A stretch of 40,369 nucleotides of DNA, from the NCBI GenBank assembly GCA_036172245.1, contig JAYWIR010000015.1, forward strand, positions 4,278,001 to 4,318,369, written 5' to 3'. The notes below the pieces were generated by a model. It worked only from the letters and a program-made list of their open reading frames with translations. It was not told where the DNA came from and did not search any database. Positions 1,682 to 40,369 of the stretch are shown here, one piece after another. Made by a program: the position numbers and the translations under genes. The DNA is from Raillietiella orientalis. Its lineage: Eukaryota. How positions within the stretch are numbered: position 1 is the first letter of the stretch; each line of letters starts with the position of its first letter.

Positions 1682-6287
<4,606 letters not shown>

Positions 6288-16665: not shown

Positions 16666-16698
16666 AATAAATTCTCAAATGATAATTTACATTTTATT
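16666..16698. terminator. Back-to-back polyadenylation signals of the convergent brahma and DOHH genes
   Basis: AATAAA on + at 16666-16671, starting 8 nt after the brahma TAA. AATAAA on - at 16698-16693, overlapping the DOHH stop (GAA TAA A). Confidence 0.55.
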
Positions 16699-17645
16699 CA
16701 GCTAAATGTAAACCAATTTCACAGCTTTCACGTATTAATCTACATGGATCATATAAATGCATCTTGAGGATTTTTTGGCACTCTGTGGTTCCTATGGAAC
16801 CCAGAGCTTCTGCGCATTCATGGCGTACCATGTCCATTTCTTTCTGATCAGCAAGTGCTTCTGCCAAAGGGAGGATGGAAAGAGGTCTTTGCAACTGACC
16901 TAGCACATATGCAACCTCATGACGAAATAGTGCACTAGTTTTATCCTTTAAACCTATAAAAACATTAGATGAAGTAAATAAAATTTAATACCTTCATGAA
17001 GAATGCTAACAGCATCATCAGTGCCCATGTTACGTAATGTGAACATTGCTCTGTAACGGGTGAATAAATTATTACAAGGATCCAAAAATTTATGTTTTAA
17101 TAATTCCAAATTGTATGCCTGTTCAGAAGGAAATGGGGGAGCTGGATCAACTGAACAATATGGGCTATTGTTCGCTTTTCCATTTGCAAGATTCCATTCT
17201 AGAAGATTAGTTGCCAGATAGCAAGTTTCTGCAACTTCATTATTGTCATCTTTAGCAAACTGCTTAAGTGTATCTAAAGCTTCAGATGCATTGAGTGCAC
17301 CTAATGCTTCACCTTACAAATGCATCATTAGTCTGGTCTAATATACTTGTACTTACCAGCTTCATGTCTTATAATTGGTTCCACTGAAGTATTTGTTAGA
17401 ATATTCAACAAATGAGGGATAGCACGTGTACATTGCATTTGACCAAGACAATATGCAAGCTCATGTTTCAATAATACTGAATCATCATCAAATGCCTCAA
17501 TTATGAAGTCAACAGCATCATCACTACATAGATTTTTCAGAACAAAAAGTGCACGAAACTTTTCAACTAATGGTTTATTGTTGCTACAGAGTAATCTCCC
17601 AATGTCATGCACATTTTGATTTTTATCAAAAACCTCAAATACCAT
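16694..17645 (-). CDS. DOHH: Deoxyhypusine hydroxylase, 3 exons (17645-17357, 17312-16992, 16953-16694), about 289 aa
   Basis: HEAT-repeat protein with all four His-Glu iron-binding motifs (LKHELAYCLGQM, IRHEAGEALGA, FRHEVAYVLGQL, VRHECAEALGSIG) and the SVDPAPP linker. Introns of 44 and 38 nt are phase-consistent. Confidence 0.95.
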
Positions 17646-20600: not shown

Positions 20601-23600
20601 GACAGAGAACCCGAGTTCTAGTGCTGCTCATATTGGGTTTTCTTGGAGTTCAAACGTTGTTGGGGATGAGGTCGATCGAGTCGGGCCACTTGAAAGTCGT
20701 TTCACTCCAAATCCCTCAAGGAACCAACCACACATTGCACACCACACGCGCACGTTTGATCAGAAAGAGTGCTTGCGGCGCCACACTGCCAGCATGATTT
20801 CCGGATTGTGGTCCCCTCGATCTCTGAGAATTCCAACGTAGACATTTTGTGGATTTCTTGGAGTATCCAGATGGAATGGAGCCATCATGCTTGCTATAGT
20901 TCGCCCCTGGACATCGTTGCGCAGCCCACTGACATTCCAACGGGTCATGTTTATCCCACAGCAAGAGGAGATCTTTTGCATTACTGCTGGGAATGGGCGT
21001 TGTGACTGCCGTTCCTTCCACAAGAAGGTTGAGCGACAGCAACACGTGCTTTCCCTTACTTTCCTCGCACTGTTTGAGATTGCAGGACTCTCTCAGCAGT
21101 GTCTGCTGTCTCAGACACTGCTCTCTATTGGGCGCCTCCTCCCACGGGAACACACATCGGGTTGTAGGCATCGCCCAGAAATAGTAGCTCAGGTTTCGCC
21201 ACCGGTTATTCTGGTTTTCGACGCCACTCATAGCCGGGAGACTCTCGACGCGTTTCCCACACACGCCGTCGGAGTGTATTAATTTTTGGCTCGCCAATGC
21301 GAACAGCTGAAGAGCTGCTTCCAACTCTTAGGGCATCTTGAGAAACGAAATGAGAAGGGAAAAAAAAAAGGAATTCGTTTCTTGATGCTTTCTTTTGTTA
21401 CTCTTCTTTAAACAGTAATTTTCGATACTTTTCGACATTTGAACAAACGCCTTTGTGGTTGAATAATATTATATTGCGACACACCTCTGGTGATCTTCTG
21501 CTCTTTTTTAAGAATCCTCCTATACGACTGACGGAATATGAGCCTTGTACGAGGTCTTGCCGTGTGTCTGTTTGGACAGATTATTAATGAAAGCTTTCCA
21601 TCTAAAACTCCAAGAATGATTGAAACAAAACAACTTCAATCTTCCTCTCCAAAGTCTTGGGTTGGTTACAGTTTTGGTGTACGTGTGAAGAAACCGTGTG
21701 ATGGATTCCAAGAGAATTGAATCTTGATAAGGAATCGCAACCTCTTGCCTAAGGAACCATCACGTGGAGAAACGACTAAGCTGCATAAATTTGCTCTCTG
21801 AGTAGTTGGAAAGATGTGGTTAGCACTTTTGTACCAACGCCCTTCCGTAACCATGGGATGCTGCCTCTCCCAACTTTACGAAAAAGTGAAATTCCTTTGC
21901 CAAGGAATGAGAAAGCCGCTCGCCAAATGGAATTTCGGACCGAGAGTTCGAGTATTTTGGGTTATTTCGATTGTCCCCATTTGAGGGGATTTGAGAGAAT
22001 GAAACAGACGTTTTAGAATTAGCATTTGTTCCCCAAAACATATACAACTACTACATATTCCAGCTATATCAAATGCATCGCAGATTTACTTTAACATGAA
22101 AAACTACGACGGCAATCATGTCTATAGATTTCTGATGGACCCTGAGAAGAGTTTGTATATACACTATTTAGGAAGCTTTCGCATTTCTGTGCTTTCATTT
22201 CTGTGGTTGTTAATTCAGTGATGCCGGGGTTTTTGCGAGGGAAAAAAAAATGGGAAATGCTGCATGTAGAAAGCAACCTTCCCCACAGGCGAAAAAGCCC
22301 TTCTGCATGATTCCTGGCTGCTTGAGCAGGGAATTCTTTGGGGTGACTTTGGGAATTCAAAAGCAACTGACTGCGTTCCTCACCCAGGCTTCATGAGGCT
22401 AGGAAGGACTTTGTATCCCTGCAACCATTTCGAAGCAGATATGGACCAGTGGCAGATGCAGTCTAATGATCGAGGTTGTTATACATTTCGAAATCGAAAA
22501 CAAAATGAACGATAGTGGGTATGATCACCTTTTAGCGAAAACTCTGATATTCCTGCTTTGTTGCAGGAAGAAAAGGATGACAGCTCGCTTCCTAGGTTAC
22601 CTGTTGCTCGACACCATCCGCCCGTCGCGAAGCTTTCCATCTTTTGTCTATGGAAGCAAACCTTTCATCGTGCAATACTTACATACTTCAATCCGTTTTT
22701 GATGTCAACAAATGTTGATGAATTCAATGAAGTCACGAGATTATTTAGAGTGACTTGGAAGAACAACTGATGGAAAACAGCATGTTCGATGGAGACGGAA
22801 ATTTTCGATGAAAATTCGCAAAGCTGACACCATGGACTTTACGGAAACGACACCCATTTCTTCGACATCATGTTGTCACACTGATTCGATACAACTCATA
22901 CACTAAAGCAAACAACTTTGAGCCTTTGGGATCGACAAAATGAGTTTCTACGTAATCTATCTGAAAGCGTGCAGACTGTTGATATTCTAGACCAGCCCCT
23001 GATGTCAACAAATATAGAAATGGAGGGCAACAGAAACACCAAAAGTCTCACAGCCATGTCTTGCGTATCGCAACACCTCCCCGTCCGTTGAGGCTGTTCT
23101 CATGGAATTGTACCCAATTTTGCCGGCAACCGCAGCAGCGTTGAAAGCTATGTCCGATGGTCCAGTTGAAATCAATTCACATCTATTCGTACGCAGCTGT
23201 TTGTCAGGAACGTGCCAACTCGTAAAACGGTATTCTCAACACGCACCACGGCAACGGGACACCAGCACTGAGGTTAGAGAAATGCTCTTCCGATCGTGGG
23301 GTTTGCTCGCACAATGGAAATTCCAAGGCTTGTCTTGAGCAGGTACGCTCAATACAGAGAGCTTTTGTTGCCTGTGTACTTCTTTCTACCTTTCGGGAGG
23401 AGGGGGATCATGTACCTTTATGTTTACCGAAACCTCCAGCAACTAAAAGACGAATTCAAGATCACATCTCTACATCCAGCAGAGGAGCTGAAGTACGACC
23501 TGTCTACCACCGGCACCATGGCAATCGAAGCGAGACCTACGCTTAGAGATTGCACGTAACTTATTTTCCATGTTTCATGTGCCTCACCACAGTGGAGCTC

Positions 23601-24707
23601 CGCACAGCCAGGGGGTGCAGCATATACGAATGCATATTCAAAGTAAAGCAATTTACCAGATAATAATAAACAAAAATTTCCCGATCTTTCCATATAGCAC
23701 GTGGCGATCTTGGACTTATCTTCGAGACTTCATATGACTAGTTTCGACGGCCAAGTTTCAACCAGGAAGACACGTGATCCTGCAAAGTTCTGGTTGCACG
23801 GCTTACCCATGTTTCACACACTCCAGAAACAGCACTCATAGTATGGCAGGAAGAAATCGTTTGGCAACACTGCACATCGCTGCTCGCAACTCGGGGAGGC
23901 CATAGCACATCTTCCTAGAGGACCTACTTACCGAGGAGACCTAAGGTGCTTAAGTCGGGGCTTGGAATGACTACCGGCGACAAACAGCGCCAAATTCGAT
24001 TCGCCGAACGACCACTTTGGTGCCTGGCAAACAGCGATGCCACAAGTAAATGAAGGGTGGCGCTTTCACTTTGGAAAGAGTGTACAGACAGCTCTCGATG
24101 TACGAACGTTTGCTATAACGCACGTCATCGATTTTATGATTTTTTCTTTATTTGCGCAAAGCCCGCAATAGCGAGCGACATAATTACAAGATTGCTTGCT
24201 GACACCCTGAAGTTACTCAATACCATAGGATGTGAACTGGAATGGCGTGTGGAAAAACATGTGTCCTCGACCCTTGTGAGCAGTTTCAGTGGATTCTAGG
24301 CACCAGTGGAATCTGCGACTTTGGAGTTTGCTGAAGTGGGCAATCGAATGGAACCCAACCTCGACTCGGCTCATACGCAAGGGAGCCGCTCGACTCGCAT
24401 TCTGAGAAGGAACGAACAATCGATAGCAAAAGAAGCGAATCGAAACGCAGAAGAAGTGGCAGAAGAATTTGATGCTGCACGTTCTTCCAGAACATCCACG
24501 ACGCACAAGATGGCTGCGGCTTTTCGGCTCACTTCTGAGCTGCGCTGGAAATGTTTGAAGAGCAGCACTCGAAGATGGAGAGAATGTCGAGAACGCGAAA
24601 AGAGGCGTTTTTTCACCGAAACGTGACGATGAGGTCTTTAACGAAGAACAAAAAAGAGAAGAAAGAAAGAAACGAACCCCGGGTTGCGAAGATAAGGCCT
24701 CCTTACG

Positions 24708-26234
24708 ATGAGCGCATCTAACGAAAAGCGGCCAGGCGTGAAGAAGCGGCGCATCCCAATTCTTGGGCTGTCCCCCTGGAGCAGGAGCACGGATGCAGTG
24801 GAGGAAAAGATGCGGGAGCGCATCTTTTCCGCACCAGTCTTTGAAGACGCAACTCCCCCGCAGACGATGCTTGCGCTCTGGTTGCAATGCAAGCTAACCC
24901 ATGCGCCATCGGAGCGGGAACACACGCACTCGTCCACGCACGAACGACAGTCCACAAGTTGTTCTGGTGGCACACTGAAAAGTTCACAGCAGCGAAGGAC
25001 TGCTTTGGGGGAACATGGCCAGGCGTGGCACCTTCTGCCGGACTCCAGTCGCCCATGGGACGAGTTGATCGTGCGATCGGCAGGGCGCCCTCACATCCCG
25101 CCGGTAGGCAACTGTCCACTAAAGCAGAAAGCGCTGCCGCAAGGGGCGTGGAGAGCCCACTTGTGCTGGTCCTGCAGCACTTCCTCCACTGGACACGATG
25201 GGGAAAGGTGCACGCGCAACCAAGTTCCAAAACGACCACTTGCCTCGCGACGGTACGGCCGCGTGTCCCGGTTCGTCGGGCGGCAGGGGAATCAAGAGTG
25301 GGCTGCCAGGGACGAGCACGAGCTGCCCGAAGGGAAGCTCAAGAAGCCTCTGGTGGTGGCGCGCTGGGCATGCGGCAGCAACGAAAGCAGCAACTGGGGA
25401 TGACCGAGAGCTTCAGGAAACCTCTTCATGAACTCGTACACCGAGTGGATTTGCAATACCCGTGCATGCCGTGCATCAACGAACGTTTCTTGGAACAGGT
25501 GCTTGGAGAATGCAAAATGAGGTGCCTTTCAAGTTGAGTGCTGAGTGTCCCTTCACGGATGCGTTTCGCGAAACTCCAAGCCGTGCACGCGCCACCATCC
25601 CGCTCACCAGCCTGCTTGCTGTTGTCGCACGCAACAAGCATAGCATGCGCCAACGAACCGTGTCTTTGAGGCAAGCGCGCGTTCCACGCACTGCTGCTGC
25701 GCTGAACAAAAAATCCCACGCCTCTTCCGTCCTTCCGCGATTCGCCCTACGGGCGTGTGCTGCGCTGATCCCGACGCTCGTACGGGATGTACGGGAAGGG
25801 CCGGTGCACAAGCGCGAGGATATTCCAGGGAACGGGACGCGCACGCCTTGGATGGTCACAACGTACAACCGACGAAAGACGGGACGAGAAAAGAGGAAAG
25901 CGACGAACGGGCCGAATTGTTCCCGAGAATGGGGAACAGCGAAGATCGAGCCAAAGTGCGAGAAACGCTCCCGTTTCCCTTCCTTCGCACTTTTCTGCGC
26001 ATGAGCGTGCACCGAACCAGGATGAAGTGGCACTCGCCAAAGGCATTGCTCGAGCGTCGGTTGTGTGACGTCAGCACGGCCACCTCTCACTTCGGCAACG
26101 ATTCCCGTTGCTTAGCAAAGGAGATTTTTCCTGACGGAAGACCTTGCTGTGTGCTGCTTGCGAATTCGGTTGTCGGATCGACTCGCGCATTTCGTGGAAG
26201 AGATCGCAACTCGGAGTATCGTACTGCTGCGTAA
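24708..26234 (+). CDS. Tentative orphan gene A in the repeat unit (exons about 24708-25521, 25581-25670, 26021-26234; frameshift near 25400 in copy 1); paralog at about 33298-34800
   Basis: A long + frame, then phase-2-consistent junctions: AG|GTGCCT...CCAAG, and a GC donor AG|GCAAGC...CCAG. Copy 2 reads in one frame across the position where copy 1 shifts. No recognisable domain. Confidence 0.3.
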
Positions 26235-26644
26235 TCCAGCGCTTATCTACTTGTGCGTCTACTTGTGAATTCGGAAGTTCGTAGCGGATAGCGAATCCAT
26301 CCCAACCGGAAGTAATTCGCATCCCTGCGAATCCGGAGCTTCGGATTCGGTTCCGAAACCAAACGGAAAGCGAGTCTTGTCGCTCGTGACCCCGGAAAAA
26401 AAAACATCTCGCCTATCCTGCCGCCGAGGTATCCAGGAAGGATTACCGTACTGCCAACTTAGAAAAGCCAGTGGCTGTAATTTAGCAGGAAAGGAAAGCA
26501 GATCCAGAAACAAAGCTGAGCACCGGTAAGATGAATGCAAGGTCCGTGAGAATGTGGGAAATCAATCCTGTGGTGCACGTGTGACGCAGGAAGTGATTCG
26601 TGGCTTGTGCACGACTTCCAGGTCGAGTCCCTCGCACTTGGGAA

Positions 26645-27788
26645 ATGTGCTCAGCCTGGATTGGCATGTCTTCCCTGCGTATCGGGAAGGAGGAGTCCGA
26701 ATCGCCGAAGCAAAAAGCTTCGTTTCGGACCGCAGACACTGAGAGTCTGTACGCGAAGGCATCCTCTGCGACCGGGTCTTCTCCGAGAATCCAGAAGCAA
26801 ACGGAAGAGGAGTGGCCACCGGAGAGCAGCAGTGAGCCTTCCCGCACGGAAGCCAAGCCGAAGAGATGGCTTTGGTTCAGCTGGAAGAAAGGCAAGGGCA
26901 AGAAGAACGGAGCGGAGGAAGCGGGGAGCGGACCAGCCGAGACAGTACCTGTTGCGAACGGCTCCCCGACTACCGAGAAAAGCTGCAAGAAGCTCGTGAA
27001 AGCAACCTCGTTCTTCAAAAGCAACCTCACTCCACAAGAGAAGGAGAGCAAGGAATGCAGAAAGAGGGGGGAAAAAGCCAGCGAGGAAGCACGGAAGCGA
27101 GACAAGAAACGGAAAGATGAACGGAAGAAGAAGAGAAACGAGGAGGAAAGACAGAAAGCGAAAGAGAAACGGGAGGAAGATCGGGAATGCAAGAAGAAAT
27201 GCGGCAACAAACGGAATCGGTTCGTGCTGAAGAAGGTAGAAGTTCGGGAGCAACAGGAGACGAAGGAACGCGTGCCTGCGAATCGCAAAAGGCAAATGGT
27301 TCCGGGTGACGACAAGGAGGCGGCCGAAACGATTGCTTCCAAGCAGGAGCATGGAAACGGCGAACGAACGAAGACCACGAACGAAAAGGCGAAGAAAGGA
27401 AAAACGCTAGCTTGCTTCCGGTTCTCCAAGCACAGGGGAAGGAGAACCGGAGAAGATGCGACCCTGGCAACGTCCTTGCCAGGGAACGAACCTACGAAAC
27501 GCGAAGTCTCGAGCAAACTGCGAGGCAAAGACGGAGGCGGCGACGTAGCCAGGGAGCAGGAAGAGCATTCCCTGCAGATGCTGCTCACGGAGCCGAAGCG
27601 GAACGAAGGAAACGACTGCCGCCATTCCCGAGTCTGGGGAGCCGATGGCGCCGAACTGCCCTCGGCAGCTGTGGATGGGTGCGCAGGCACACATAGCCTC
27701 GAACTGCGAAGAAGAAAGCAGACCTCTCCAGATGGGTGGCTGGTCAGCCGCAGCGTTCAGTGCGACTATGGAGATTATTGCCGAGAAG
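26645..27788 (+). CDS. Large Lys/Glu/Arg-rich low-complexity orphan exon (open frame 26600-28039), probably the N-terminal exon of the CAP-like gene
   Basis: The frame is open for more than 1.4 kb and encodes a charged, coiled-coil-like stretch (EEARKRDKKRKDERKKKRNEEERQKAKEKREE). About 850 nt are free of indels between the two copies. A phase-1 donor (GAAG|GTTGGT, 27789) matches the phase-1 acceptor of CAP exon A. Confidence 0.55.
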
Positions 27789-28440
27789 GTTGGTGGAACG
27801 GGTTCTGCATTCCAGCCACTGCACACGCGTCTGCTCCCGTTCGGTGCCCCGGGTGGAGTTTGCGGATGCGCGTCGCTCGTTCTGCACGTTCGCGCACGAA
27901 CGTACGCGTACGTGTGCGTGGCTCGTGTGGAGCTCGCAACGCGTTTGCATGCGTTTGGTCGAGAAACTTGCTTTTTGTTCGCTTGCGCGCGAAACAAGGA
28001 AGGACGGAAAAGAAGAAGAGCCGTTGCACGTGTTCTTGACCGGAAGCCGGTAGAAGGGGTGCGCATTTCGGAAAAGTGCAGGCTTGTCTGGAAAGAGCGC
28101 CGCTGCGTTGCCTTCGGGAATTTCACAGGCGCGCTTTGTTCTTCAAACTCTTTCCGGAACCAGGTGGCCATTTATCCGAGTGCAAGCTGCTGCGAGAGCA
28201 TTTTGTCGAGCCGAACGTTCCGCAAGCAAGGCAATTGCACTTGGGATGCGAAGAAAAGCAATGATAATTTCCCTTCGCATGAACGTTTCGTGTGCTTCTC
28301 TCATGGCAGCGTTGCGACGTGATGGCGGTGGCGGGAGCGGTGCGCTGACGGCTTGCGAGGCACGCGTGTTGCCACTCGCGTTGTCCGATCGGTTGAATGC
28401 ATGAAAAATGCTAATGAGACGCTTCTTGTTTTTCCCAAAG

Positions 28441-29601
28441 GGCAAATCGAGTCCGTGGTCCCGGCACTGGAATCCTTGATAACGCGATTGGAGATAGCAG
28501 CCACGGCGCTGGAAGCTGCGGCAACGGAGGCCGAACTTGGCGTGGAGCAGTCGGATGGCTTCGGTAATTGCGACTGTCCGCGTGCAATGGCTTGCTGCTT
28601 GCCCGCAAGTCCGATGTGCACGTCCGCGCTGCCTGGAATAGCCGAAATCGGCAGAGCGACGCGTGCAGCGAAGATGAGCTGCAGCGGCCATTCTCGCTTT
28701 CTGTCGACCTAACACGGCTTGGCTGATCAACTCACAACTCACGGGTCGCTAACAGCTCGCAATGGAGAAACAGCGTGCCTTCCATCGTCCAGAATGTCGA
28801 TACCTTGTTTGCCGCTGTTTCCAGAGATCAGCAATCCGTGGCTCGAAGATTACGCCCGAATTGGGAAGGGATCTTTGGCCGTCTACCGCAATCTGTCGGC
28901 CAAGATCTCGGAAGCGGTTCGCAAGCACTCGGACATGGTGCTGAAAGCATTCAAGTAAGCGTGTAAGGTGTTCATAAGCCCACGATGGAAGGTTCCCTCT
29001 CCTCGGTTTCCCAGTTGCTAACCATCTTCCTTTCCTGTTGCAGGATCCAGGGGCGTTTGATGCAACTAATATGCTGCTCGCAGGAACCCGACGACTCGAA
29101 AGTGCTCGACCTCCTTCAACCGCTTTCCGAGTGCATCGTGCAGATCGAGGCATTCGAGCAAAGTCAGCGCGACACCGAGACGCATGTTCACCTGTGTGTG
29201 ATCAGCCAGAGTGTGGCAGCCATCCTTTGGGTGACCATGGTAGGTGTACGGGCACGCATCCGCAAAGTTTCTTTCCTTTTCGTAGAGCCCCTATCCCGCA
29301 GATGCTGTTCAAGATATGATGTTTTTATGCCGACTCCCTGTGAAGCGCGTCCTCCAAGAATGGGAGGAAAAGTGAGTTTCCGGCTCGAAGAGAAGATCCG
29401 GAATCGTGCTTGCTCGTTTCTTTCAGCGATGATCATGTGTGTTGGGTGAAGTCGTGGATGGCCGTATTGTCCGTGTTGCACAGTTTGGCGAAGACCCATC
29501 ACACGACGTGGGTTCCCTGGCACGCAAAAGGTGCCAGCGTTGAGAAGCACACCCCACCTCCACCCTTGCCGACCTCTTCCCACTCTCCTACGTCCCGGTG
29601 A
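28441..29601 (+). CDS. Divergent cyclase-associated protein (CAP/Srv2) N-terminal-half gene, copy 1. Exons A-E: 28441-28563, 28825-28954, 29044-29239, 29286-29371, 29427-29601
   Basis: The spliced product (LESLITRLEIAATALE...SLAVYRNLSAKISEAVRKHSDMVLKAF...LDLLQPLSECIVQIEAF...HLCVISQSVAAILWVTMSPYP...KRVLQEW...HVCWVKSWMAVLSVLHSLAKTHHTTWVPW...PPPPLP*) follows the CAP RLE oligomerisation motif, helical folded domain and P1 polyproline. The four introns (261, 89, 46, 55 nt) are phase-consistent. An alternative in-frame ATG lies at 28401. Confidence 0.85.
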
Positions 29602-30643
29602 CCCGGAAGGCCTGCTTTGCTTGCACGGTCGAATGCAGGCAAAGCAGTCACAATAAATACGTGTCGAATTTCGAATGATCTTTCAGTTCTTGAATGGTCC
29701 ACGACTGCCAAGTCGCCCATTCCACATTACCGAAAGTTTGGCACCATGCGACGGCACCAACCAAGTTGTGCAGAATGCTCAGCCACTTTTCAGCGTGGTT
29801 TCCATTTTCCCTCGTTCCCTCGAATGCTCTGAATGAGGAAAACAAGCAGAAAAGAACCACCAAAAGATCAAAGTCGACTTCGAAACTGCGAGTTCGACTG
29901 CATCCACTCAATTTTGCCACACATTGGAATGGGACGCTCCTTTTTCGCTTCCAAATGCAACACGCACCCTGCGCGGTCCAGCGAGAGCCAACTCTCGTGA
30001 AACCACTGCTCTCCAAAGTAGCGAAGATGAAGTTTCAGCCACAGCGGATTCCACCCAAAGCTGACCAAGGCAGCAACAGTCAGAAGATTGGACGGACCCA
30101 TAGTGAGAATGCAAACCGGGCATGCCGTCCACCCATTTAGTACCAGCCGAACACATTTTCCACTTTTTTCTTACGAAAAGGGAACTCGTTCATGCCTTCG
30201 CACCGCGGTGGGAAGACTATGTCCACTGATAGTCAGACTTTTCGGATGACTCAAAATAGGAGATTGCGACTGATCTCGTGGTTTCTGCCTGAATGCCCTC
30301 TTCCCTGTGGCACGCAGCATCCAGCTGCCAACCGGATTCGCTTCAGTCCTCATGATGTCGGTCGACTCGTGCCGACATGCCATTGTGGAAAATGAACTAA
30401 CAGAGGTGGTGGAAGCAATGCCGCGAAGGATGTGCGCAGACTCGCCAGGTTCGCTGGTCCTTGGCAGAATTGCAGAAGGACAAGCAAGAACGGGGAGAAA
30501 ATGAAAAGCAAATAGGAAGAAATGGGGGGAAGACGCTTGGAAGGGATCGCTGCCTGTTCCTCTGCATCTTTCCTAAGGTGCCGGCGGGGTGTTGCTGAAC
30601 GCTTCCCAGCTGGGACCATCTTAATGCTTTTCGTGGGAAGCAA

Positions 30644-31800
30644 ATGGCCACGCGGAACGATGGCGCGTCCGTGTCTCCCAGGCGTCGCCGCAGGCCGCCA
30701 CGATCCGGCTCTAGCCGCAATGAGCTGCTAGGGACGCGGCTGGCGGTAGATGCATCACTTCCAAACGCTCCTGCAATTGTATCCCCGGGATCCCAAGGGT
30801 GGGCACAACAAAGTTTAACCAGCAGGAAGCCTGAGAGCCACAGAATCCGCATTCAGCTGCGGGCGGATCCGCGCTCTCCGTGCCGGCTCTAGTTGGGGCT
30901 CCCACACAACCCGGGTCCAGTGAAGTCGGAGGGGGTTCGAAGAGAAACAATCCCAGTGCAACAGCAGAATCGCCGAATACGTACCCAAAAAGGTAAGATG
31001 TAAGTGTTCTCAGGAGGACTGGGGACCATCGGTAGTCTCGCCGGGGAATAGCCAAGAGCTCGCGGCTGCGAAGACGTAGGGCACTTGGTACCCGCGAGCT
31101 CGCTGTAGATCAACCACCCAAGTCTTTCTTCCTGGAGTTGAACTCTCACGAGACCTTCCACCTTCTTGGCATGCTGCTGCCCAAGAAGCTCCCGCAGGCA
31201 TCATTGCCGCGTGGGAGGTTCAATCCAGGCTCAGCTCCCTTGCCACGATGCACGACTGTTTCCTGGAGGCAGAAGTTGTTACAGAAGCAGTACAGCAGCC
31301 GCCGCCGTGACTCCGGGCCCGTCTGCTTGCTGTTCGCCCGCGTGCCCAGTTTCCTGCAAGCAAACGCTACCGTTCGCGGGGCGATCCTGCTGGAGGTGCA
31401 GCTGTTCTTCCTGGTCGGTGAGACGTGATGCGAAGTGCGCAGTGGGCCACGTTGGACAGTATGCCGAGCATACCAAGAAAGTGGATGGGATTGTTTCGCG
31501 AGGATGGGCGTCGAAGGCAGAACGAACTCGAGTGCAAACGTTGGGAATGCTTTCGGTACACTTTCGATGAGACCGATCAGGTGTGAGAAAATCCGAACGT
31601 GGAGGAAAGCGTGTATTCCATCTTCTCCAGGTGTTGACCGTATGCGCCTTGCGCCGCGTCAGAAAAGACGCAGGAGAGCTGTCCTGCTCCGGCGCTGCAA
31701 GACGGCCCCGGATCGTCGGCAATCTGAGGAACAGGGTCGGGCAAACCGCCTTCGCTTTTTTCGCAGCGCCTCCCTTTTTTGCAACGGAGGAGGGTGCTGA
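30644..31800 (+). pseudogene. Tentative orphan gene C in the repeat unit (exons about 30644-30992 with an in-frame TAG at 30890, 31109-31417, 31631-31800)
   Basis: Strong donors AAG|GTAAGA (30993) and CG|GTGAGA (31418) and acceptors at 31108 and 31630 are all phase 1. The middle exon has G/C-ending codons, and its single difference from copy 2 is synonymous. The product is Arg-rich with no recognisable domain. Confidence 0.25.
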
Positions 31801-33907
31801 ATGCCGGCTGTGCCCTCGCCTGCCTCAGACTGCTTGGCAACGAATAACGTGGTGCAGAGCGGAGGCAGCAGCCACCTCGAGAGCTAGCTCGTTTCTCCGG
31901 GAACGCCTGCCGCGCACAATCTTCGCTTCGATCTTCCTCGGCCATCAGCGAACCTTTCTGCGCGCAAGCCTGCGCCGAACTGCGTGCGCAGTGGCGCGAC
32001 AACGCGCGTGTCTGCGACAAGAAAGGAACACTTGTTTCCGAATGGCAATCCCGGAGATGGAGGCCGGCAGGCTTTGCAGATGGAACGCGGAAGAGCTGGC
32101 CCGGTCATTGCGGAAGCCGGTCGGATAGCTGGCTTCTCGCGAAACGACACATCTGCACAACGTCGCTGCCGTTGGCCGTTTCATTTCCTCCCTCCGTTCA
32201 AGCAAGCCTTCGCTACGCGCACGTTCTCCGCACCGGAAATGCTGCCGCTTCACCCTTCCCAGCTGTCACCTCTGCAGCACTTCTTCATCGTGCATCCTTT
32301 CTTGTGGGTCACGCGCATACACCAGTTTCACCCATCCATCACAAGATGACGCATCTCTGCTGATCTTCGCAGAACCTCTATCGTGAAGCCCGTTTCGCTC
32401 GAGCCTCGTTTCCACCGAGGATGGGCAAGAAGGTAGGCAGCGAAAAAGCGCACGTGCGAAATGCGCCACCTCACTTGCCATGCATTTTCTCCTTCACGTC
32501 ACACGGATTTCCTGCTGCGTTTCACGCCGTCGTATGCACCGTCACAGCAAACGTTCGCATGCAAATGAAGCAACAGGAGAGAGTCCGCTTCGACCGACCT
32601 CGCTTGCCCCCGCACCGTTTCGCATGTCGAGCACACGCTCGAACGCTGTGACCAGCAAGCAAGCTGTTGCCATCAGGCAGTGGAACGCTGCCAGTGCGTG
32701 CCTGCCGCATCCAACGATTTGTCATTGGGTTCGTGCGGTGGTATCCGTCATCGGCGGCAAGCTGCCACGTTGAGCGCATCCCGCTTCGGCAAGCACGCTC
32801 TTGCTGCGCGTTCAGCCGTGTGCGGCGGCGCCGCGTTGCTCGCGATCTTTCCGGGAAGAAGGGAGGATGAAGGCAGGGAAAGAAGGACGTCGGACAGGTG
32901 GACTGCCAGTCTAACGTGGCGTCGCACGGCAAGTCCGGAACAGTCCACAAATACTGATGTAAGAAACACGCAAAAAGTGTGAGAACGAGACGATGACGGG
33001 GGTTTGCGCGTTCGGCCGTTCCCTCCAAGCGGAACCGGCGCTGCATAACGAACATCTCGCTGCTCGCTCATATCTTCTGCGAGTTCAGGCCGCCTGGCAG
33101 GCGTCGTCATGTTGACTTCAGCGGAAGAAGTGTCGTCTCGAAGAACCGCCCGAGACTCCAGCTGGTGGAGGGTTGCGAACATAAGGCCTCCTTACGATGA
33201 GCGCATCTAACGAAAAGCGGCCAGGCGTGAAGAAGCGGCGCACATGAGATCCCTCGGCTGTCCCCCTGAGCAGGGAGCACGGATGTAGTGATGAAAGATG
33301 CGGGAGCGCATCTTTCCGCTTCAGTCTTTGAAGACGCAACTCCCTGCAGACGATGCTTGCGCTCTGCTTGCAATTTTTAAGCAACTCCATGCGCCATCGG
33401 AGCGGGAACACACGCACCGTCCAACCACGCACGAACGACAGTCCACAAGTTGTTCTGGTGGCACACTGAAAAGTTCACAGCAGCGAAGGACTGCTTTGGG
33501 GGAACATGGCCAGGCGTGGCACCTTCTGCCGGACTCCAGTCGCCCATGGGACGAGTTGATCGTGCGATCGGCAGGGCGCCCTCACATCCCGCCGGTAGGC
33601 AACTGTCCACTAAAGCAGAAAGCGCTGCCGCAAGGGGCGTGGAGAGCCCACTTGTGCTGGTCCTGCAGCACTTCCTCCACTGGACACGATGGGGAATGGT
33701 GCACGTGCAACAAAGTTCCAAAACGACCACTTGCCTCGCGACGGTACCGGCGCGTGTCCCGGTTCGTCGGGCGGCAGGGGAATCAAGAGTGGGCTGCCAG
33801 GGACGAGCACGAGCTGCCCGAAGGGAAGCTCAAGAAGCCTCTTGTGGTGGCGCGCTGGGCATGCGGCAGCAACGAAAGCAGCAACTGGGATGTGACCCTG
33901 GAGAGCT

Positions 33908-33908
<1 letters not shown>

Positions 33909-33978
<70 letters not shown>

Positions 33979-33985
33979 TTTTTTT
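33909..33985. repeat. C70 followed by T7, present only in copy 2
   Basis: Copy 1 reads GAGAGCTTCAGGAAACCTC at the equivalent site (about 25406-25424). Confidence 0.85.
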
Positions 33986-35209
33986 GTAAACCTCTTCATG
34001 AACTCGTACACCGAGTGGATTTGCAATACTTGTGCATGCCGTGCATCAACGAACGTTTCTTGGAACAGGTGCTTGGAGAATGCAAAATGAGGTGCCTTTC
34101 AAGTTGAGTGCTGAGTGTCCCTTCACGGATGCGTTTCGCGAAACTCCAAGCCGTGCACGCGCCACCATCCCGCTCACCAGCCTGCTTGTTGTTGTCGCAC
34201 GCAACAAGCATAGCATGCGCCAACGAACCGTGTCTTTGAGGCAAGCGCGCGTTCCACGCACTGCTGCTGCGCTGAACAAAAAATCCCACGCCTCTTTTCC
34301 GTCCTTCCGCGATTCGCCCAACGGGCGTATGCTGCGCTGATCCCGACGCTCGTACGGGATGTACGGGATGGGCCGGTGCACAAGCGCGAGGATATTCCAG
34401 GGAACGGGACGCGCACGCCTTGGATGGTCACAACGTACAAACGACTAAAGACGGGACGAGAAAAGAGGAAAGCGACGAACGGGCCGAATTGTTCCCGAGA
34501 ATGGGGAACAGCGAAGATCGAGCCAAAGTGCGAGAAACGCTCCCGTTTCCCTTCCTTCGCACTTTTCTGCGCACAGTCCCTTCCAATGAGGTGAAGTGGC
34601 ACCTGCCAAAGGCATTGTCGAGTGTCATTGCATTGTGCTACGGGCTCCTTTCAATTTCGGTATCGATCTTCCCGTTGCTTAGCAGGCGGAGATTTTTCCT
34701 GACGGAAGAACTTGCTAAAGCGTTTGCGAATTCGGTTGTCGGATCGACTCGCGCATTTCGTGGACGAGATCGCAACTCGGAGTATCGTACTGCTGCGTAA
34801 TCCAGCGCTTATCTACTTGTGCGTCTACTTGTGAATTCGGAAGTTCGTAGCGGATAGCGAATCCATCCCAACCGGAAGTAATTCGCATCCCTGCGAATCC
34901 GGAACTTCGGATTCGGTTACGAAACCAAACGGAAAGCGAGTCTTGTCGCTCGTGACCCCGGAAAAAACACATCTCGCCTATCCTGCCGCCGAGGTATCCA
35001 GGAAGGATAACCGTACTGCCAACTTAGAAAAGCCAGTGGCTGTAAGGTAGCAGGAAAGGAAAGCAGATCTAGAAACAAAGCTGAGCACCGGTAAGATGAA
35101 TGCGAGGTCCGTGAGAATGTGGGAAATCAATCCTGTGGTGCACGTGTGACGCAGGAAGTGATTCGTGGCTTGTGCACGACTTCCAGGTCGAGTCCCTCGC
35201 AATTGGGAA

Positions 35210-35379
35210 ATGTGCTCAGCCTGGATTGGCATGTCTTCCCTGCGTATCGGGAAGGAGGAGTCCGAATCGCCGAAGCAAAAAGCTTCGTTTCGGACCGCAG
35301 ACACTGAGAGTCTGTACGCGAAGGCATCCTCTGCGACCGTGTCTTCTCCGAGAATCCAGACGCAAACGGAAAAAATTTT

Positions 35380-35423
<44 letters not shown>

Positions 35424-36397
35424 GGAGTGGGGTGTTCGAGAGCAGCAGTGAGCCTTCCTGCACGGAATGCCGGAAGAGATGGCTGTTCAGCTGGAAGAAA
35501 GGCAAGGGCAAGAAGAACGGAGCGGAGGAAGCGGGGAGCGGACCAGCCGAGACAGTACCTGTTGCGAACGGCTCCCCGACTACCGAGACAAGCTGCAAGA
35601 AGCTCGTGAAAGCAACCTCGTTCTTCAAAAGCAACCTCACTCCACAAGAGAAGGAGAGCAAGGAATGCAGAAAGAGGGGGAAAAAAGCCACCAAGGAAGC
35701 ACGGAAGCGAGACGAGAAACTGAAAGATGAACGGAAGAAGAAGAGAAACGAGGAGGACAGACAGAAAGCGAAAGAGAAACGGGAGGAAGATCGGGAATGC
35801 AAGAAGAAATCCGGCAACAAACGGAATCGGTTCGTGCCGAAGAAGGTAGAAGTTCAGGAGCAACAGGAGACGAAGGAACACGTGCCTGAGAATTGCAAAA
35901 GGCAAATGGTTCCGGGTGACGACAAGGAGGCGGCCGAAACGATTGCTTCCAAGCAGGAGCATGGAAACGGCGAACGAACGAAGACCACGAACGAAAAGGC
36001 GAAGAAAGGAAAAACGCTAGCTTGCTTCCGGTTCTCCAGGCACAGGGGAAGGAGAACCGGAGAAGATGCGACCCTGGCAACGTCCTTGCCAGGGAACGAA
36101 CCTACGAAACGCGAAGTCTCGAGCAAACTGCGAGGCAAAGACGGAGGCGGCGACGTAGCCAGGGAGCAGGAAGAGCATTCCCTGCAGATGCTGCTCACGG
36201 AGCCGAAGCGGAACGAAGGAAACGACTGCCGCCATTCCCGAGTCTGGGGAGCCGATGGCGCCGAACTGTCCTCGGCAGCTGTGGATGGGTGCGCAGGCAC
36301 ACATAGCCTCGAACTGCGAAGAAGAAAGCAGACCTCTCCCCAGATGTGTGGCTGGTCAGCCGCAGCGTTCAGTGCGACTATGGAGATTATTGGCAAG
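35210..36397 (+). CDS. Copy 2 of the Lys/Glu/Arg-rich exon, disrupted as assembled by the poly-T insertion and a +2 indel near 36340
   Basis: Colinear with 26645-27788, with 15 substitutions and no indels over 35491-36339. Confidence 0.45.
35376..35420. repeat. T5-C-T39 homopolymer, present only in copy 2
   Basis: Copy 1 reads ACGGAAGAGGAGTGG at the equivalent site (about 26801-26815). Confidence 0.85.
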
Positions 36398-37056
36398 GTT
36401 GGTGGAACGGGTTCTGCATTCCGGCCACTGCACACGCGTCTGCTCCCGTTCGGTGCCCCGGGTGGTGTTTGCGGATGCGCGTCGCTCGTTCTGCACGTTC
36501 CCGCACGAACGTACGCGTACGTGTGCGTGGCTCGTGTGGAGCTCGCAACGCGTTTGCATGCGTTTGGTCGAGAACTGCTTTTGTTCGCTTGCGCGCGAAA
36601 CAAGGAAGGAACGAAAAAGAAGAAGAGCCGTTTGCACGTGTTCTTGACCGAAAGCCGGTAGAAGGGGTGGCGCATTTCGGAAAAGCGCGCAGGTTTGTCT
36701 GGAAAGAGCGCCGCTGCGTTGCCTCTTCGGGAATTTCATAAGGCGCTACTCTTCAACTCTTTCCCGAACCAGGTGGCCATTTAGGGAGGAAATTCCATTG
36801 ATGCTGCTGCGAGAAAGATTTGTTCTCCTCGAGCCGAACGTTCCGCCAGCAAGGCAATTGCACTTGGGATGCGAAGAAAAGCAATGATAATTTCTCGCAT
36901 GAACGTTTCGTGTGCTTCTCTCAGCAGCGTTGCGACGTGATGGCGGTGGCGGGGAGCGGTGCGCGACATTGCGAGGCACGCGTGTTGCCACTCGCGTTGT
37001 CCGATCGGTTGAATGCATGAAAAATGCTAATGAGACGCTTCTTGTTTTTCCCAAAG

Positions 37057-38210
37057 GGCAAATCGAGTCCGTGGTCCCGGCACTGGAATCCTTGATAACG
37101 CGATTGGAGATAGCAGCCACGGCGCTGGAAGCTGCGGCAACGGAGACCGAACTTGGCGTGGAGCAGTCGGATGGCTTCGGTAATTGCGACTGTCCGCGTG
37201 CAATGGCTTGCTGCTTGCCCGCAAGTCCGATGTGCACGTCCGCGCTGCCTGGAAAGCCAGCCCGGTAGAGCGACGCGTGCCAAGATGAGCTGCAGCGGCC
37301 ATTCTCGCTTTCTGTCGACCTAACACGGCTTGGCTGATCAACTCACAACTCACGGGTCGCTAACAGCTCGCAATGGAGAAACAGCGTGCCTTCCATCGTC
37401 CAGAATGTCGATACCTTGTTTGCCGCTGTTTCCAGAGATCAGCAATCCGTGGCTCGAAGATTACGCCCGAATTGGGAAGGGATCTTTGGCCGTCTACCGC
37501 AATCTGTCGGCCAAGAACTCGGAAGCGGTTCGCAACACTCGGACATGGTGCTGAAAGCATTCAAGTAAGCGTGTAAAGGTTCATTCCTCGTTGGAGGAAG
37601 GTTCCTCCTCGGTTTTTCCCAGTTGCTAACCATCTTCTCTTCCCTGTTGCAGGATCCAGGGGCGTTTGATGCAACTAATATGCTGCTCGCAGGTCCGACG
37701 ACCTCGAAAGTGCTCGACCTCCTTCAACCGCTTTCCGAGTGCATCGTGCAGATCGAGGTATCTGAGCAAAGTCAGCGCGACACCGAGACGCATGTCTGCT
37801 CCAAAGTATCAGCCAGAGTGTGGCAGCCATCCTTTGTGACCATGGTAGGTGGTCGGGCACGCATCCGCAAACTTTCTTTCCTTTTCGTAGAGCCCCTATC
37901 CCGCGGATGCGGTTCAAGACATGATGTTTTTATGCCGACTCCCTGTGAAGCGCGTCCTCCAGGAATGGAAGCAAAAGTGAGTTTCCGGGTCGAAGGGAAG
38001 ATCGGGAAAAGATGGTGCTTGCTCGTTTCTTTCAGCGATGATCATGTGTGTTGGGTCAAGTCGTGGATGGCCGTATTGTCCGAGTTGCACAGTTTGGCGA
38101 AAACCCATCACACGACGTGGGTTCCATGGCACGCAAAAGGTGCCAGCGTTGAGGAGCACACCCCACCTCCACCCTTGCCGACCTCTTCCCACTCTCCTAC
38201 GCCCCGGTGA
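37057..38210 (+). pseudogene. CAP/Srv2 N-terminal-like gene, copy 2; frameshifted in exons B and C as assembled (pseudogene or consensus errors)
   Basis: Exons A (37057-37179), D (37891-37976) and E (38036-38210) are intact and the same length as in copy 1. Exon B has a 1-nt deletion (CGCAACACTCG) and exon C has several clustered indels. Confidence 0.6.
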
Positions 38211-38656
38211 CCCGGAAGGCCTGCTTTGCTTGCACGTTCGGATGCTGGCAAAGCAGTCACAATAAATACGTGTCGAATTCCGAATGATCTTTCAGTTCTT
38301 GAATGGTCCACGACTGCCAAGTCGCCCATTCCACATTACCGATAGAGTTTGGCACCATGCGACGGCACCAACCAAGTTGTGCAGAATGCTCAGCCACTTT
38401 TCAGCGTGGTTTCCATTTTCCCTCGTTCCCTCGAATGCTCTGAATGAGGAAAACAAGCAGAAAAGAACCACCAAAAGATCAAAGTCGACTTCGAAACTGC
38501 GAGTTCGACTGCATCCACTCAATTTTGCCACACATTGGAATGGGACGCTCCTTTTTCGCTTCCAAATGCAACACGCACCCTGCGCGGTCCAGCGAGAGCC
38601 AACTCTCGTGAAACCACTGCTCTCCAAAGTAGCGAAGATGAAGTTTCAGCCACAGC

Positions 38657-39296
38657 GGATTCCACCCAAAGCTGACCAAGGCAGCAACAGTCAGAAGATT
38701 GGACGGACCCATATTGAGAATGCAAACCGGGCATGCCGTCCACCCATTTAGTACCAGCCGAACACATTTTCCACTTTTTTCTTACGAAAAGGGAACTCGT
38801 TCATGCCTTCGCACAGCGGTGGGAAGACTATGTCCACTGATAGTCAGACTTTTCGGATGACTCAAAATAGGAGATTGCGACTGATCTCGTGGTTTCTGCC
38901 TGAATGCCCTCTTCCCTGTGGCACGCAGCATCCAGCTGCCAACCGGATTCGCTTCAGTCCTCATGATGTCGGTCGAGGATTCCACCCAAAGCTGACCAAG
39001 GCAGCAACAGTCAGAAGATTGGACGGACCCATATTGAGAATGCAAACCGGGCATGCCGTCCACCCATTTAGTACCAGCCGAACACATTTTCCACTTTTTT
39101 CTTACGAAAAGGGAACTCGTTCATGCCTTCGCACCGCGGTGGGAAGACTATGTCCACTGATAGTCAGACTTTTCGGATGACTCAAAATAGGAGATTGCGA
39201 CTGATCTCGTGGTTTCTGCCTGAATGCCCTCTTCCCTGTGGCACGCAGCATCCAGCTGCCAACCGGATTCGCTTCAGTCCTCATGATGTCGGTCGA
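38657..39296 (+). repeat. 320-bp direct tandem duplication inside copy 2 (38657-38976 and 38977-39296)
   Basis: GGATTCCACCCAAAGCTGACC...GATGTCGGTCGA occurs twice in tandem, with one mismatch seen (CACAGCGG vs CACCGCGG). It is single in copy 1. Confidence 0.9.
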
Positions 39297-40369
39297 CTCG
39301 TGCCGACATGCCATTGTGGAAAATGAACTAACAGAGGTGGTGGAAGCAATGCCGCGAAGGATGTGCGCAGACTCGCCAGGTTCGCTGGTCCTTGGCAGAA
39401 TTGCAGAAGGACAAGCAAGAACGGGGAGAAAATGAAAAAGCAAATAGGAAGAAATGGGGGGAAGACGCTTGGAAGGGATCGCTGCCTGTTCCTCTGCATG
39501 TTTCCTAAGGTGCCGGCGGGGTGTTGCTGAACGCTTCCCACCTGGGACCATCTTAATGCTTTTCGTGGGAAGCAAATGGCCACGCGGAACGAATGGCGCG
39601 TCCGTGTCTCCCAGGCGTCGCTGCAGGCCGCCACCATCCGGCTCTAGCCGCAATGAGCTGCCAGGGACGCGGCTGGCGGTAGATGCATCACTTCCAAACG
39701 CTCCTGCAATTGTCCCCGGTTTCCCAAGGGTGGCCACAAAGTTTAACCACCAGGAAGCCTGAGAGCCACAGAATCCACATTCAGCTGCGGGCGGATCCGC
39801 GCTCTCCGTGCCGGCTCTAGTTGGGGCTCCCACACAACCCGGGTCCAGTGAAGTCGGAGGGGCTTTGAAGAGAAACAACCCCAGTGCAACAGCAGAATCG
39901 CCGAATACGAAACCAAAAAGGTAAGATGTAAGTGTTCTCAGGAGGACTGGGGAGCATCGGTAGTCTCTTTGGGGAATAGCCAAGAGCTCGCGGCTGCGAA
40001 GACGTAGGGCACTTGGTACCTGCGAGCTCGCTGTAGATCAACCACCCAAGTCTTTCTTCCTGGAGTTGAACTCTCACGAGACCTTCCACCTTCTTGGCAT
40101 GCTGCTGCCCAAGAAGCTCCCTCAGGCATCATTGCCGCGTGGGAGGTTCAATCCAGGCTCAGCTCCCTTGCCACGATGCACGACTGTTTCCTGGAGGCAG
40201 AAGTTGTTACAGAAGCAGTACAGCAGCCGCCGCCGTGACTCCGGGCCCGTCTGCTTGCTGTTCGCCCGCGTGCCCAGTTTCCTGCAAGCAAACGCTACCG
40301 TTCGCGGGGCGATCCTGCTGGAGGTGCAGCTGTTCTTCCTGGTCGGTGAGACGTGATGCGAAGTGCGCA

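What the first reader, a model, noticed from the sequence alone, without database searches (positions are those of the whole stretch)
26881..29601. Opposite substitution patterns in the two halves of the duplicated gene
Hand alignment of 26881-27729 with 35491-36339 gives 15 substitutions and no indels, and all 15 change the amino acid (K>T, E>K, S>T, E>K, K>E, R>L, E>D, C>S, L>P, R>Q, R>H, A>E, R>C, K>R, P>S). CAP exons D and E (261 nt) show 7 synonymous and 5 non-synonymous changes. The synonymous excess supports the CAP reading frame and suggests the copies are real paralogs rather than read noise. The all-replacement pattern suggests diversifying selection on the charged region, as seen in reproductive or conflict-driven genes. 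The counts are small.
Basis: partly seen in the sequence, partly recalled or inferred. Interest (0 to 1): 0.7.

Follow-up and report, generated by a model that had tools for sequence, protein, structure and literature searches.

The report
All-replacement changes in duplicated CAP gene
Two tandem copies of a shortened actin-regulator (CAP-like) gene in an arthropod genome differ by 15 changes in their highly charged first exon, and every one alters an amino acid; this is real and unusual, but there are too few changes to prove adaptive evolution.

Summary
26881-27729 and 35491-36339 differ at 15 sites with no indel. All 15 are non-synonymous in the only open + frame. CAP exons D+E show 7 synonymous and 5 non-synonymous changes, Fisher p=0.0009.

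In copy 1 the charged ORF splices in frame through GT-AG sites into five CAP exons, giving 538 aa with a CAP_N domain and no C-terminal half.

A pairwise codon test rejects omega=1 for the charged exon (p=0.0024) and gives omega=0.24 for D+E. Neutral nulls matched for mutation type, CpG, context or the local non-coding spectrum give P(15/15)=0.003-0.018, or 0.018-0.027 for 13 independent events.

Several facts weaken the selection reading:
- 8 of 15 changes touch CpG.
- 13 of 15 lie within about 300 nt.
- 9 of 15 fall in a predicted K/E/R-rich helix whose net charge stays +13.
- Copy 2 carries frame-breaking lesions in exons B and C and at the exon junction.
- The D/E block is an older haplotype, also seen in an independent run.
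- No homologue or RNA evidence was found.

Verdict: the contrast is real. Weak, composition-only constraint is the slightly favoured reading. Diversifying selection is plausible but unproven.

The parts
24681..33169 (+). Tandem repeat unit, copy 1 (period about 8.5-8.9 kb)
   Evidence: Self-blastn: 24681-25402, 25418-26806, 26822-30365 and 30046-31441 match 33170-33892, 33988-35371, 35438-38976 and 38977-40369 at 94.7-98.0% identity.
33170..40369 (+). Tandem repeat unit, copy 2, cut off by the end of the window
   Evidence: No third copy was found in the window by tblastn with the copy-1 protein.
26881..27788 (+). Charged first large exon of copy 1. Acceptor ttcag|CTGGAA, donor GAGAAG|gttggt, ends in phase 1. 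It lies inside a 480-codon open frame, 26597-28036.
   Evidence: The other two + frames have 5 stops each over the same span. Base composition differs by codon position (chi2=24.4, p=0.0004).
27032..27268 (+). Codes for residues 51-129, a predicted long K/E/R-rich helix with 70% charged residues. It holds 9 of the 15 replacements.
   Evidence: AlphaFold2 single-sequence model: helix H51-129, block pLDDT 83-97 over residues 51-110, rest below 60. 9 of 15 in the helix, P=0.0095; net charge +13 in both copies.
26979..27284 (+). Cluster holding 13 of the 15 substitutions
   Evidence: 13 of 15 lie in the first 404 of 849 nt, binomial P=0.002.
28441..28563 (+). CAP exon A (N-terminal helix segment), starts in phase 1, in frame with the charged exon
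   Evidence: One difference between copies (A>T, non-synonymous), no indel.
28825..28954 (+). CAP exon B
   Evidence: Copy 2 has I>N and a 1-nt deletion.
29044..29239 (+). CAP exon C, core of the helical folded domain
   Evidence: Pfam CAP_N PF21938, E=1.2e-9, 38.8 bits against a cutoff of 27. PDB CAP1 HFD chains, E=1e-6.
29286..29371 (+). CAP exon D: 4 synonymous, 2 non-synonymous differences
29427..29601 (+). CAP exon E with a PPPPLP tail and a TGA stop at 29599-29601: 3 synonymous, 3 non-synonymous differences
   Evidence: Weak CAP_N hit, 17.5 bits, E=0.0044.
35423..36661 (+). Copy-2 charged ORF (412 codons, open). A +CC near 36338 and a -GAG near 36394 put the shared donor out of frame with exon A.
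   Evidence: At the canonical donor copy 2 is in phase 0 where copy 1 is in phase 1.
37517..37840 (+). Copy-2 exons B and C with frame-breaking lesions: -1 in B; -2, +1, -1, -2 and a 10-nt replaced block with a stop in C

Best explanation
The locus is a tandem duplication of a lineage-specific, shortened CAP gene.

Copy 1 gene model. A large first exon encodes a lysine/glutamate/arginine-rich segment. Its residues 51-129 are predicted to form a ~79-residue charged helix, and the flanks are predicted to be disordered. Five short exons follow and encode the N-terminal half of cyclase-associated protein (N-terminal helix plus helical folded domain). The protein ends just after a short proline run, with no WH2/CARP half.

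Why the two parts differ. They differ in constraint and in history. Exons D-E sit in an old block that diverged by point substitution. That block has been shuffled by recombination or gene conversion and is under purifying selection on the folded domain. The charged exon is constrained only to stay open and charged, so most K/E/R-type replacements are tolerated. Its changes are driven largely by CpG mutation and local clustering, and copy 2 is decaying. On this reading the complete absence of silent changes is a roughly 1-in-50 to 1-in-300 fluctuation on top of omega near 1, not proof of adaptive diversification.

Shown: the counts, the gene model's frame consistency, the CAP_N identity, the lesions in copy 2 and the mosaic history.
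Inferred: translation of the charged exon, composition-only constraint, and the actin-related function.
For: Gene and frame:
- The charged frame is the only open + frame.
- It splices in frame through GT-AG sites into the CAP exons, giving 538 aa plus a stop.
- CAP_N hit and CAP1 HFD hit.
- No CAP_C among 38 + strand ORFs of 35 aa or more downstream.

Frame constraint:
- 0 indels in 849 nt.
- 8.4 are expected at the non-coding rate (P=0.0002).
- 4.1 are expected given 15 substitutions (P=0.017).

Near-neutral amount of change:
- 15 observed, against 7.4-30.7 expected at the locus's non-coding rates.

Mutation-driven features:
- 8 of 15 changes are at CpG sites, which make up 16.7% of sites (P=0.0013).
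- Two pairs lie within 5 nt of each other.
- In non-coding DNA only 45 of 187 substitutions are isolated, so clustered events are common here.

Composition-only constraint:
- 9 of 15 changes are in the predicted charged helix.
- 5 of those 9 change charge, yet the helix's net charge is +13 in both copies.

Copy 2 decay:
- +CC and -GAG before the donor.
- A frameshift in exon B.
- Four indels and a stop in exon C.
- A poly-T insertion with a stop upstream.

Different histories:
- The run-X1 contig has copy-2 letters at 11 of 12 D/E sites and the AAAG intron insertion.
- No listed difference from copy 1 falls in exons A-C, and its only indel is AAAG.
- D+E omega=0.24.
Against: - omega=1 is rejected nominally (LRT p=0.0024).
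- All neutral nulls give P(15/15)=0.003-0.027. Luck on top of neutrality is therefore not a comfortable explanation.
- Adding the 59 nt up to the donor gives 17 of 17 replacements.
- If copy 2 were a freely decaying pseudogene, its charged ORF should also have collected indels. It has none, although exons B and C have five.
- dN in the first 404 nt is about 13/310, or 4%. That exceeds the isolated-substitution divergence of neighbouring non-coding DNA (0.7-1.6%).
- There is no RNA, protein or homologue evidence that the exon is translated at all.
Confidence: 0.42

Rival explanations
1. There is true diversifying (positive) selection on the charged helix between paralogues or alleles. Replacement differences are favoured or protected, while gene conversion between the tandem copies keeps erasing neutral (silent) differences. 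The result is dN well above dS.
For: - 0 synonymous against 15 (17 up to the donor) non-synonymous changes.
- GY94 LRT p=0.0024; context-matched nulls 0.003-0.027.
- Replacements concentrate in one structural element (9 of 15 in the helix, P=0.0095).
- The ORF stays indel-free in both copies although neighbouring DNA is indel-rich.
- The mosaic pattern shows that conversion or recombination acts at this locus.
- Site 29545 in exon E has three states, K/E/Q, across copy 1, copy 2 and X1.
Against: - The sample is very small and there is no polarity.
- More than half of the changes are at CpG sites.
- Total change lies within the neutral range.
- Copy 2 seems non-functional downstream.
- The helix's net charge is unchanged, which suggests drift within a compositional constraint.
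- No expression or homology data are available.
Confidence: 0.33
2. Most of the 15 sites are not translated. The real CAP-like protein would start further downstream, for example at the in-frame ATG at 27296, or at 27732 in another frame using the donor 4 nt further on. The purine-rich stretch would be a 5' leader or upstream ORF that stays open because it is poor in T, and the replacement-only pattern would be chance.
For: - 13 of the 15 differences lie upstream of the ATG at 27296.
- T makes up only 83 of 849 bases, which lowers stop frequency.
- The antisense frame is also open for 424 codons in copy 1.
- No homologue among 1.84 billion representatives, none, and ESM recognition is low.
- Copy 2 is in frame with exon A only through a different donor.
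- The upstream ATGs of copy 1 are separated from the ORF in copy 2 by a poly-T insertion with a stop.
Against: - The other two + frames have 5 stops each where this frame has none over 480 codons.
- Base composition follows codon position (p=0.0004).
- The frame joins the CAP exons in phase at the stronger donor in copy 1.
- No indels, unlike the flanking non-coding DNA.
- Neutral non-coding DNA would give 15/15 'replacements' only 0.3-3% of the time.
Confidence: 0.15
3. The differences, the duplication itself, or both are assembly artefacts: mis-polished repeat copies, or two haplotypes laid in tandem.
For: - Copy 2 contains a 70-nt C run and a 45-nt T run that copy 1 lacks, and many small indels.
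- Run X1 shows a single sequence path over the stretch, not two.
- Repeats are hard to polish.
Against: - Conserved neighbouring genes are intact, for example a 543-aa SNF2 ORF covering the full Pfam profile.
- The charged exon has no indels, which are the usual long-read error type.
- 11 of 12 D/E copy-2 letters, the AAAG insertion and the 27201 G>C change are seen in an independent run.
- Errors would not favour synonymous sites in D/E.
Confidence: 0.07

Closest known systems
Cyclase-associated protein (CAP1/CAP2, Srv2, insect capulet)
   Same: Exon C matches Pfam CAP_N (E=1.2e-9) and the mouse and human CAP1 helical folded domain in the PDB (E=1e-6). An N-terminal helical segment precedes the domain and a proline run follows it. 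[quoted passage not shown]
   Different: The gene stops right after PPPPLP. No WH2 or CARP/CAP_C half was found downstream. It carries an N-terminal charged extension of about 300 residues with no homologue. The CAP part is very divergent: a word-based search found no near relative.
Charged single alpha-helices (ER/K or SAH domains)
   Same: 79 residues with 70% K/E/R/D, predicted as one long helix at pLDDT above 90 for about 45 residues. SAH domains are described as made mainly of charged residues and acting as rigid connectors (PMC5812594; listing and start of abstract only).
   Different: This is only a single-sequence prediction. The segment has net charge +13, contains Cys, Gly, Asn and a Phe-Val-Leu patch, and no SAH predictor or experiment was applied.
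Apparent positive selection caused by multinucleotide or context-dependent mutation
   Same: Two pairs of changes lie 2 and 5 nt apart, 8 of 15 are at CpG sites, and clustered differences dominate the non-coding DNA of the locus. Multinucleotide events are reported to be mostly non-synonymous and to cause false positives (bioRxiv 10.1101/165969; listing and start of abstract only).
   Different: After collapsing the pairs (13 events) and matching context, the neutral probability is still only 0.018-0.027.
Young tandem duplicates with gene-conversion mosaics and one decaying copy
   Same: Divergence varies from 0.2% to over 4% in blocks along the unit. A recombinant haplotype is seen in another data set. 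One copy has frameshifts.
   Different: The decaying copy keeps a 412-codon open, indel-free charged ORF.

Membership tests
CAP/Srv2 family | Helical folded domain (Pfam CAP_N PF21938) | tested here: met
   Exon C scores 38.8 bits against a cutoff of 27, E=1.2e-9. Exon E scores 17.5 bits, below the cutoff. PDB CAP1 HFD, E=1e-6.
CAP/Srv2 family | N-terminal oligomerisation helix before the HFD | tested here: inconclusive
   Exon A (41 aa) gave no Pfam hit. Its resemblance to the CAP N-terminal helix is recalled, not computed.
CAP/Srv2 family | Proline-rich region after the HFD | tested here: met
   PPPPLP is read directly in exon E, followed 11 codons later by the stop. It is much shorter than in the canonical CAPs I recall.
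CAP/Srv2 family | C-terminal WH2 plus CARP/beta-helix half (CAP_C) | tested here: not met
   In-frame TGA at 29599-29601. 0 of 38 + strand ORFs of 35 aa or more in 29560-33200 hit CAP_C. 0 of 36 ORFs of 110 aa or more in 19-33 kb hit it. Exons shorter than 35 aa would be missed.
Charged single alpha-helix (SAH, ER/K) | Long helix dominated by E, K and R | tested here: met
   K21, E18, R13, D3 of 79 residues. AlphaFold2 predicts helix 51-129. This is a prediction only.
Charged single alpha-helix (SAH, ER/K) | Monomeric and stable in solution, not a coiled coil | not testable with these tools
   Needs circular dichroism or analytical ultracentrifugation on the expressed segment.
Genes under diversifying selection | dN/dS significantly above 1 | tested here: inconclusive
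   Pairwise GY94 LRT p=0.0024. Context-aware nulls give 0.003-0.027. There are only 15 changes, two sequences and no polarity.
Genes under diversifying selection | Both compared copies are functional coding genes | tested here: not met
   Copy 2 has frame-breaking lesions at the exon 1 junction and in exons B and C, if the assembly is right.
Genes under diversifying selection | Signal repeats across further paralogues, species or populations | not testable with these tools
   No genome is held, there is no third copy in the window, no homologue was found, and most of the third sequence's charged-exon differences (only 1 shown) were not displayed.

The most novel reading that the evidence does not exclude
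An arthropod lineage has invented a tandemly amplified 'N-CAP only' actin regulator fused to an orphan, strongly basic ER/K-type helix. That helix is under diversifying selection between array members. Gene conversion erases silent differences and selection keeps charge-balanced replacements, as expected for a protein in a reproductive or host-parasite conflict.
Probability: 0.28. Interest if true: 0.5.

Novelty: new variant of a known kind. Interest (0 to 1): 0.3.

Why it matters
If the charged exon is translated and truly under diversifying selection, this would be a natural experiment. The N-terminal, cofilin-cooperating half of CAP would be separated from its actin-monomer-recycling half, fused to a new charged helix and amplified in tandem. 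That would be useful for asking what N-CAP does on its own and how orphan low-complexity exons become functional. If instead the pattern is drift in a composition-constrained segment, it is an ordinary young duplicate. It would then be a reminder that a 15-site dN/dS contrast, half of it at CpG sites, cannot carry a selection claim.

Tried and rejected
- Own genome: not held. No further paralogues could be collected.
- Earlier scan notes: none by place or by sequence.
- Homologues of the charged ORF: none with the word-based search at 155-494 aa, none with phmmer against 1.84 billion representatives at E up to 0.001, and no usable ESM Atlas hit.
- Homologues of CAP exon C among longer proteins: none. 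This is a weak test for a 65-aa query.
- RNA evidence: no RNA holder was listed, so expression and splicing are untested.
- Runs X2 and X3: nothing was laid.
- Run X1: only 40 of 61 differences were displayed. For the charged exon only 27201 G>C is visible, so X1 could not be used to polarise the 15 changes.
- Antisense ORF 26482-27756 (424 aa): rejected as the coding frame. It gains a stop in copy 2, 13 of its codons differ, and it is the S/F/L-rich complement of a purine-rich sense strand. It has no Pfam hit.
- Other + frames: rejected, with 3-5 stops each.
- Other genes in the repeat unit: 0 Pfam families in 36 ORFs of 110 aa or more.
- Literature: one search for CAP paralogues in insects or testis listed nothing on CAP (listing only). 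I make no claim that such genes are not in print.
- One search failed on term syntax and was re-sent correctly.
Full report
**Context**

The window is eukaryotic.
- Its AT-rich first half carries intact exons of an MCM gene (1816-4046, minus strand), a brahma-type SNF2 ATPase (about 11.4-16.7 kb, plus strand) and a HEAT-repeat gene (16694-17678, minus strand).
- The 543-aa SNF2 ORF is at most about 90% identical to proteins of many insects and of an ostracod, with no closer relative listed. The organism is therefore an arthropod from a poorly sampled lineage.
- From about 20 kb onwards GC content rises from 28-46% to 42-62%.

**The duplication**

Self-blastn shows a tandem repeat with a period of about 8.5-8.9 kb. 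The stretch 24681-31441 matches 33170-40369 at 94.7-98.0% identity, with many small gaps. Copy 2 runs off the end of the window. A tblastn with the copy-1 protein finds no third copy in the window.

**The observation**

- 26881-27729 and 35491-36339 align without gaps and differ at 15 sites.
- Only one + frame is open in both copies.
- The other + frames have 3-5 stops each.
- Exons D and E carry 12 changes, 7 silent and 5 replacement, with no indel.
- Fisher's exact test gives p=0.0009.

**Gene model**

In copy 1 the charged ORF joins five CAP exons through canonical splice sites and in phase. The ORF is open for 480 codons, 26597-28036, where the other two frames have five stops each. The exons are:
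- charged exon, 26881-27788
- exon A, 28441-28563
- exon B, 28825-28954
- exon C, 29044-29239
- exon D, 29286-29371
- exon E, 29427-29601

Together they give 538 codons and a TGA stop.

Identity of the CAP part:
- Exon C matches Pfam CAP_N above the cutoff (E=1.2e-9) and exon E matches it weakly.
- PDB chains of the CAP1 helical folded domain match at E=1e-6.
- The protein ends 11 residues after PPPPLP.
- None of 38 downstream + strand ORFs of 35 aa or more hits a CAP C-terminal domain.

This is therefore an 'N-CAP only' gene with an N-terminal extension of about 300 residues.

The extension:
- It has no detectable relative.
- A single-sequence AlphaFold2 model predicts one long helix at residues 51-129. 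Block pLDDT is 83-97 for residues 51-110, and the rest is low-confidence.
- The helix is 70% K/E/R/D.

Whether the extension is translated is inferred, not shown. In favour:
- It is the only open frame.
- Base composition differs by codon position (p=0.0004).
- The splice phase fits.
- There are no indels.

Against:
- There is no RNA run and no homologue.
- The sequence is poor in T and its antisense frame is also open.
- An in-frame ATG at 27296 lies downstream of 13 of the 15 differences.

**Copy 2**

Relative to copy 1, copy 2 has the following lesions:
- a 50-nt insertion, mostly T, with an in-frame stop just upstream of the exon;
- a +CC and a -GAG in the last 62 nt of the charged exon, so the shared donor is in phase 0 instead of phase 1;
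- a 1-nt deletion in exon B;
- four indels plus a 10-nt replaced block with a stop in exon C.

If the assembly is right, the CAP part of copy 2 is a pseudogene. Even so, its charged ORF is open for 412 codons and free of indels.

**How unusual is 15 of 15?**

Neutral probabilities:
- 0.018 with uniform mutation, 0.005 type-matched, 0.003 type and CpG matched, 0.018 trinucleotide-matched.
- 0.010-0.016 with the spectrum of the locus's own non-coding differences, and 0.018-0.027 if the two close pairs are single events.

A pairwise GY94 likelihood-ratio test rejects omega=1 (LRT 9.2, p=0.0024). For D+E it gives omega=0.24, p=0.02. The signal is real at about the 1% level.

**What tempers it**

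1. 8 of 15 changes touch CpG sites, which make up 16.7% of sites (P=0.0013). The R>Q, R>H and R>C changes are CpG transitions.
2. 13 of 15 lie in the first 404 nt (P=0.002), and 9 of 15 lie in the predicted helix (P=0.0095).
3. Five of the nine helix changes alter charge, yet the net charge is +13 in both copies. This looks like drift within a compositional constraint.
4. The total amount of change (15) lies between the 7.4 and 30.7 expected from non-coding rates.
5. Clustered differences dominate the non-coding DNA: only 45 of 187 substitutions are isolated. Multinucleotide events, which inflate dN/dS (10.1101/165969; abstract start only), are therefore plausible here.
6. There is no outgroup.

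**What strengthens it**

- The charged exon has no indel. The non-coding rate predicts 8.4 (P=0.0002), the non-coding indel-to-substitution ratio predicts 4.1 (P=0.017), and the low-divergence non-coding blocks predict about 2.4 (7 indels in 2454 nt). The frame therefore seems protected in both copies.
- Extending to the donor gives 17 of 17 replacements.

**Independent data**

One DNA run of the same coded organism (X1) holds the stretch at 95-99% identity as a single path of contigs.
- Its 2.6-kb contig has the copy-2 letter at 11 of the 12 D/E sites, a third letter at 29545, and the copy-2 AAAG intron insertion.
- No listed difference from copy 1 falls in exons A-C, and the contig's only indel is AAAG.
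- So the D/E haplotype is real and old (7 silent changes in 261 nt), and it occurs attached to intact exons B-C.
- The locus is a recombination or conversion mosaic, and the two 'halves' do not share one history.
- In the charged exon X1 shows 27201 G>C, as in copy 2. Its other 12 differences in 27089-27930 and 4 in 26804-27046 were not displayed.

**Verdict**

The contrast is genuine. The folded CAP domain is under purifying selection. The charged exon evolves by replacement only. I rate the readings as follows:
- weak, composition-only constraint plus mutation bias and some luck: 0.42
- true diversifying selection: 0.33
- the stretch is largely untranslated: 0.15
- assembly artefact: 0.07

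The gene architecture (N-CAP without the C-terminal half, fused to an orphan charged helix and tandemly duplicated) is the more novel element, but it needs transcript evidence.

Noticed in passing
33909-33978 and 35376-35420: Copy 2 holds a 70-nt run of C and a 45-nt run of T that copy 1 lacks. The T run sits just upstream of the charged exon and brings an in-frame stop. They may be real expansions or assembly artefacts.
   Followed up: partly
38657-39296: A 320-bp segment is duplicated head to tail at 99.7% identity in copy 2 only.
   Followed up: no
26482-27756 (minus strand): A 424-codon antisense ORF lies opposite the charged exon in copy 1. It is S/F/L-rich, broken by a stop in copy 2 and has no Pfam hit. 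It is probably a by-product of the purine-rich sense strand.
   Followed up: yes
about 19000-21000: Base composition switches sharply, from 28-46% GC over the conserved MCM, brm and HEAT-repeat genes to 42-62% GC over the region holding the CAP-like duplication.
   Followed up: no
29545: This site has three states: A in copy 1 (Lys), G in copy 2 (Glu) and C in the run-X1 contig (Gln).
   Followed up: no
27570-27575: The run-X1 contig has one base left out and one put in five bases apart inside the charged ORF. Length and frame are kept.
   Followed up: no
13734-15365: The brahma-type SNF2 exon is no more than about 90% identical to any listed protein, and roughly equally close to many insect orders and an ostracod. 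The source lineage seems poorly represented in public protein sets.
   Followed up: partly
27732-27792: A second frame reading MGGWSAAAFSATMEII... is kept open in both copies, with an in-frame 3-nt deletion in copy 2. Through a weaker donor 4 nt downstream it would also join exon A in phase. This offers an alternative short N-CAP start.
   Followed up: partly
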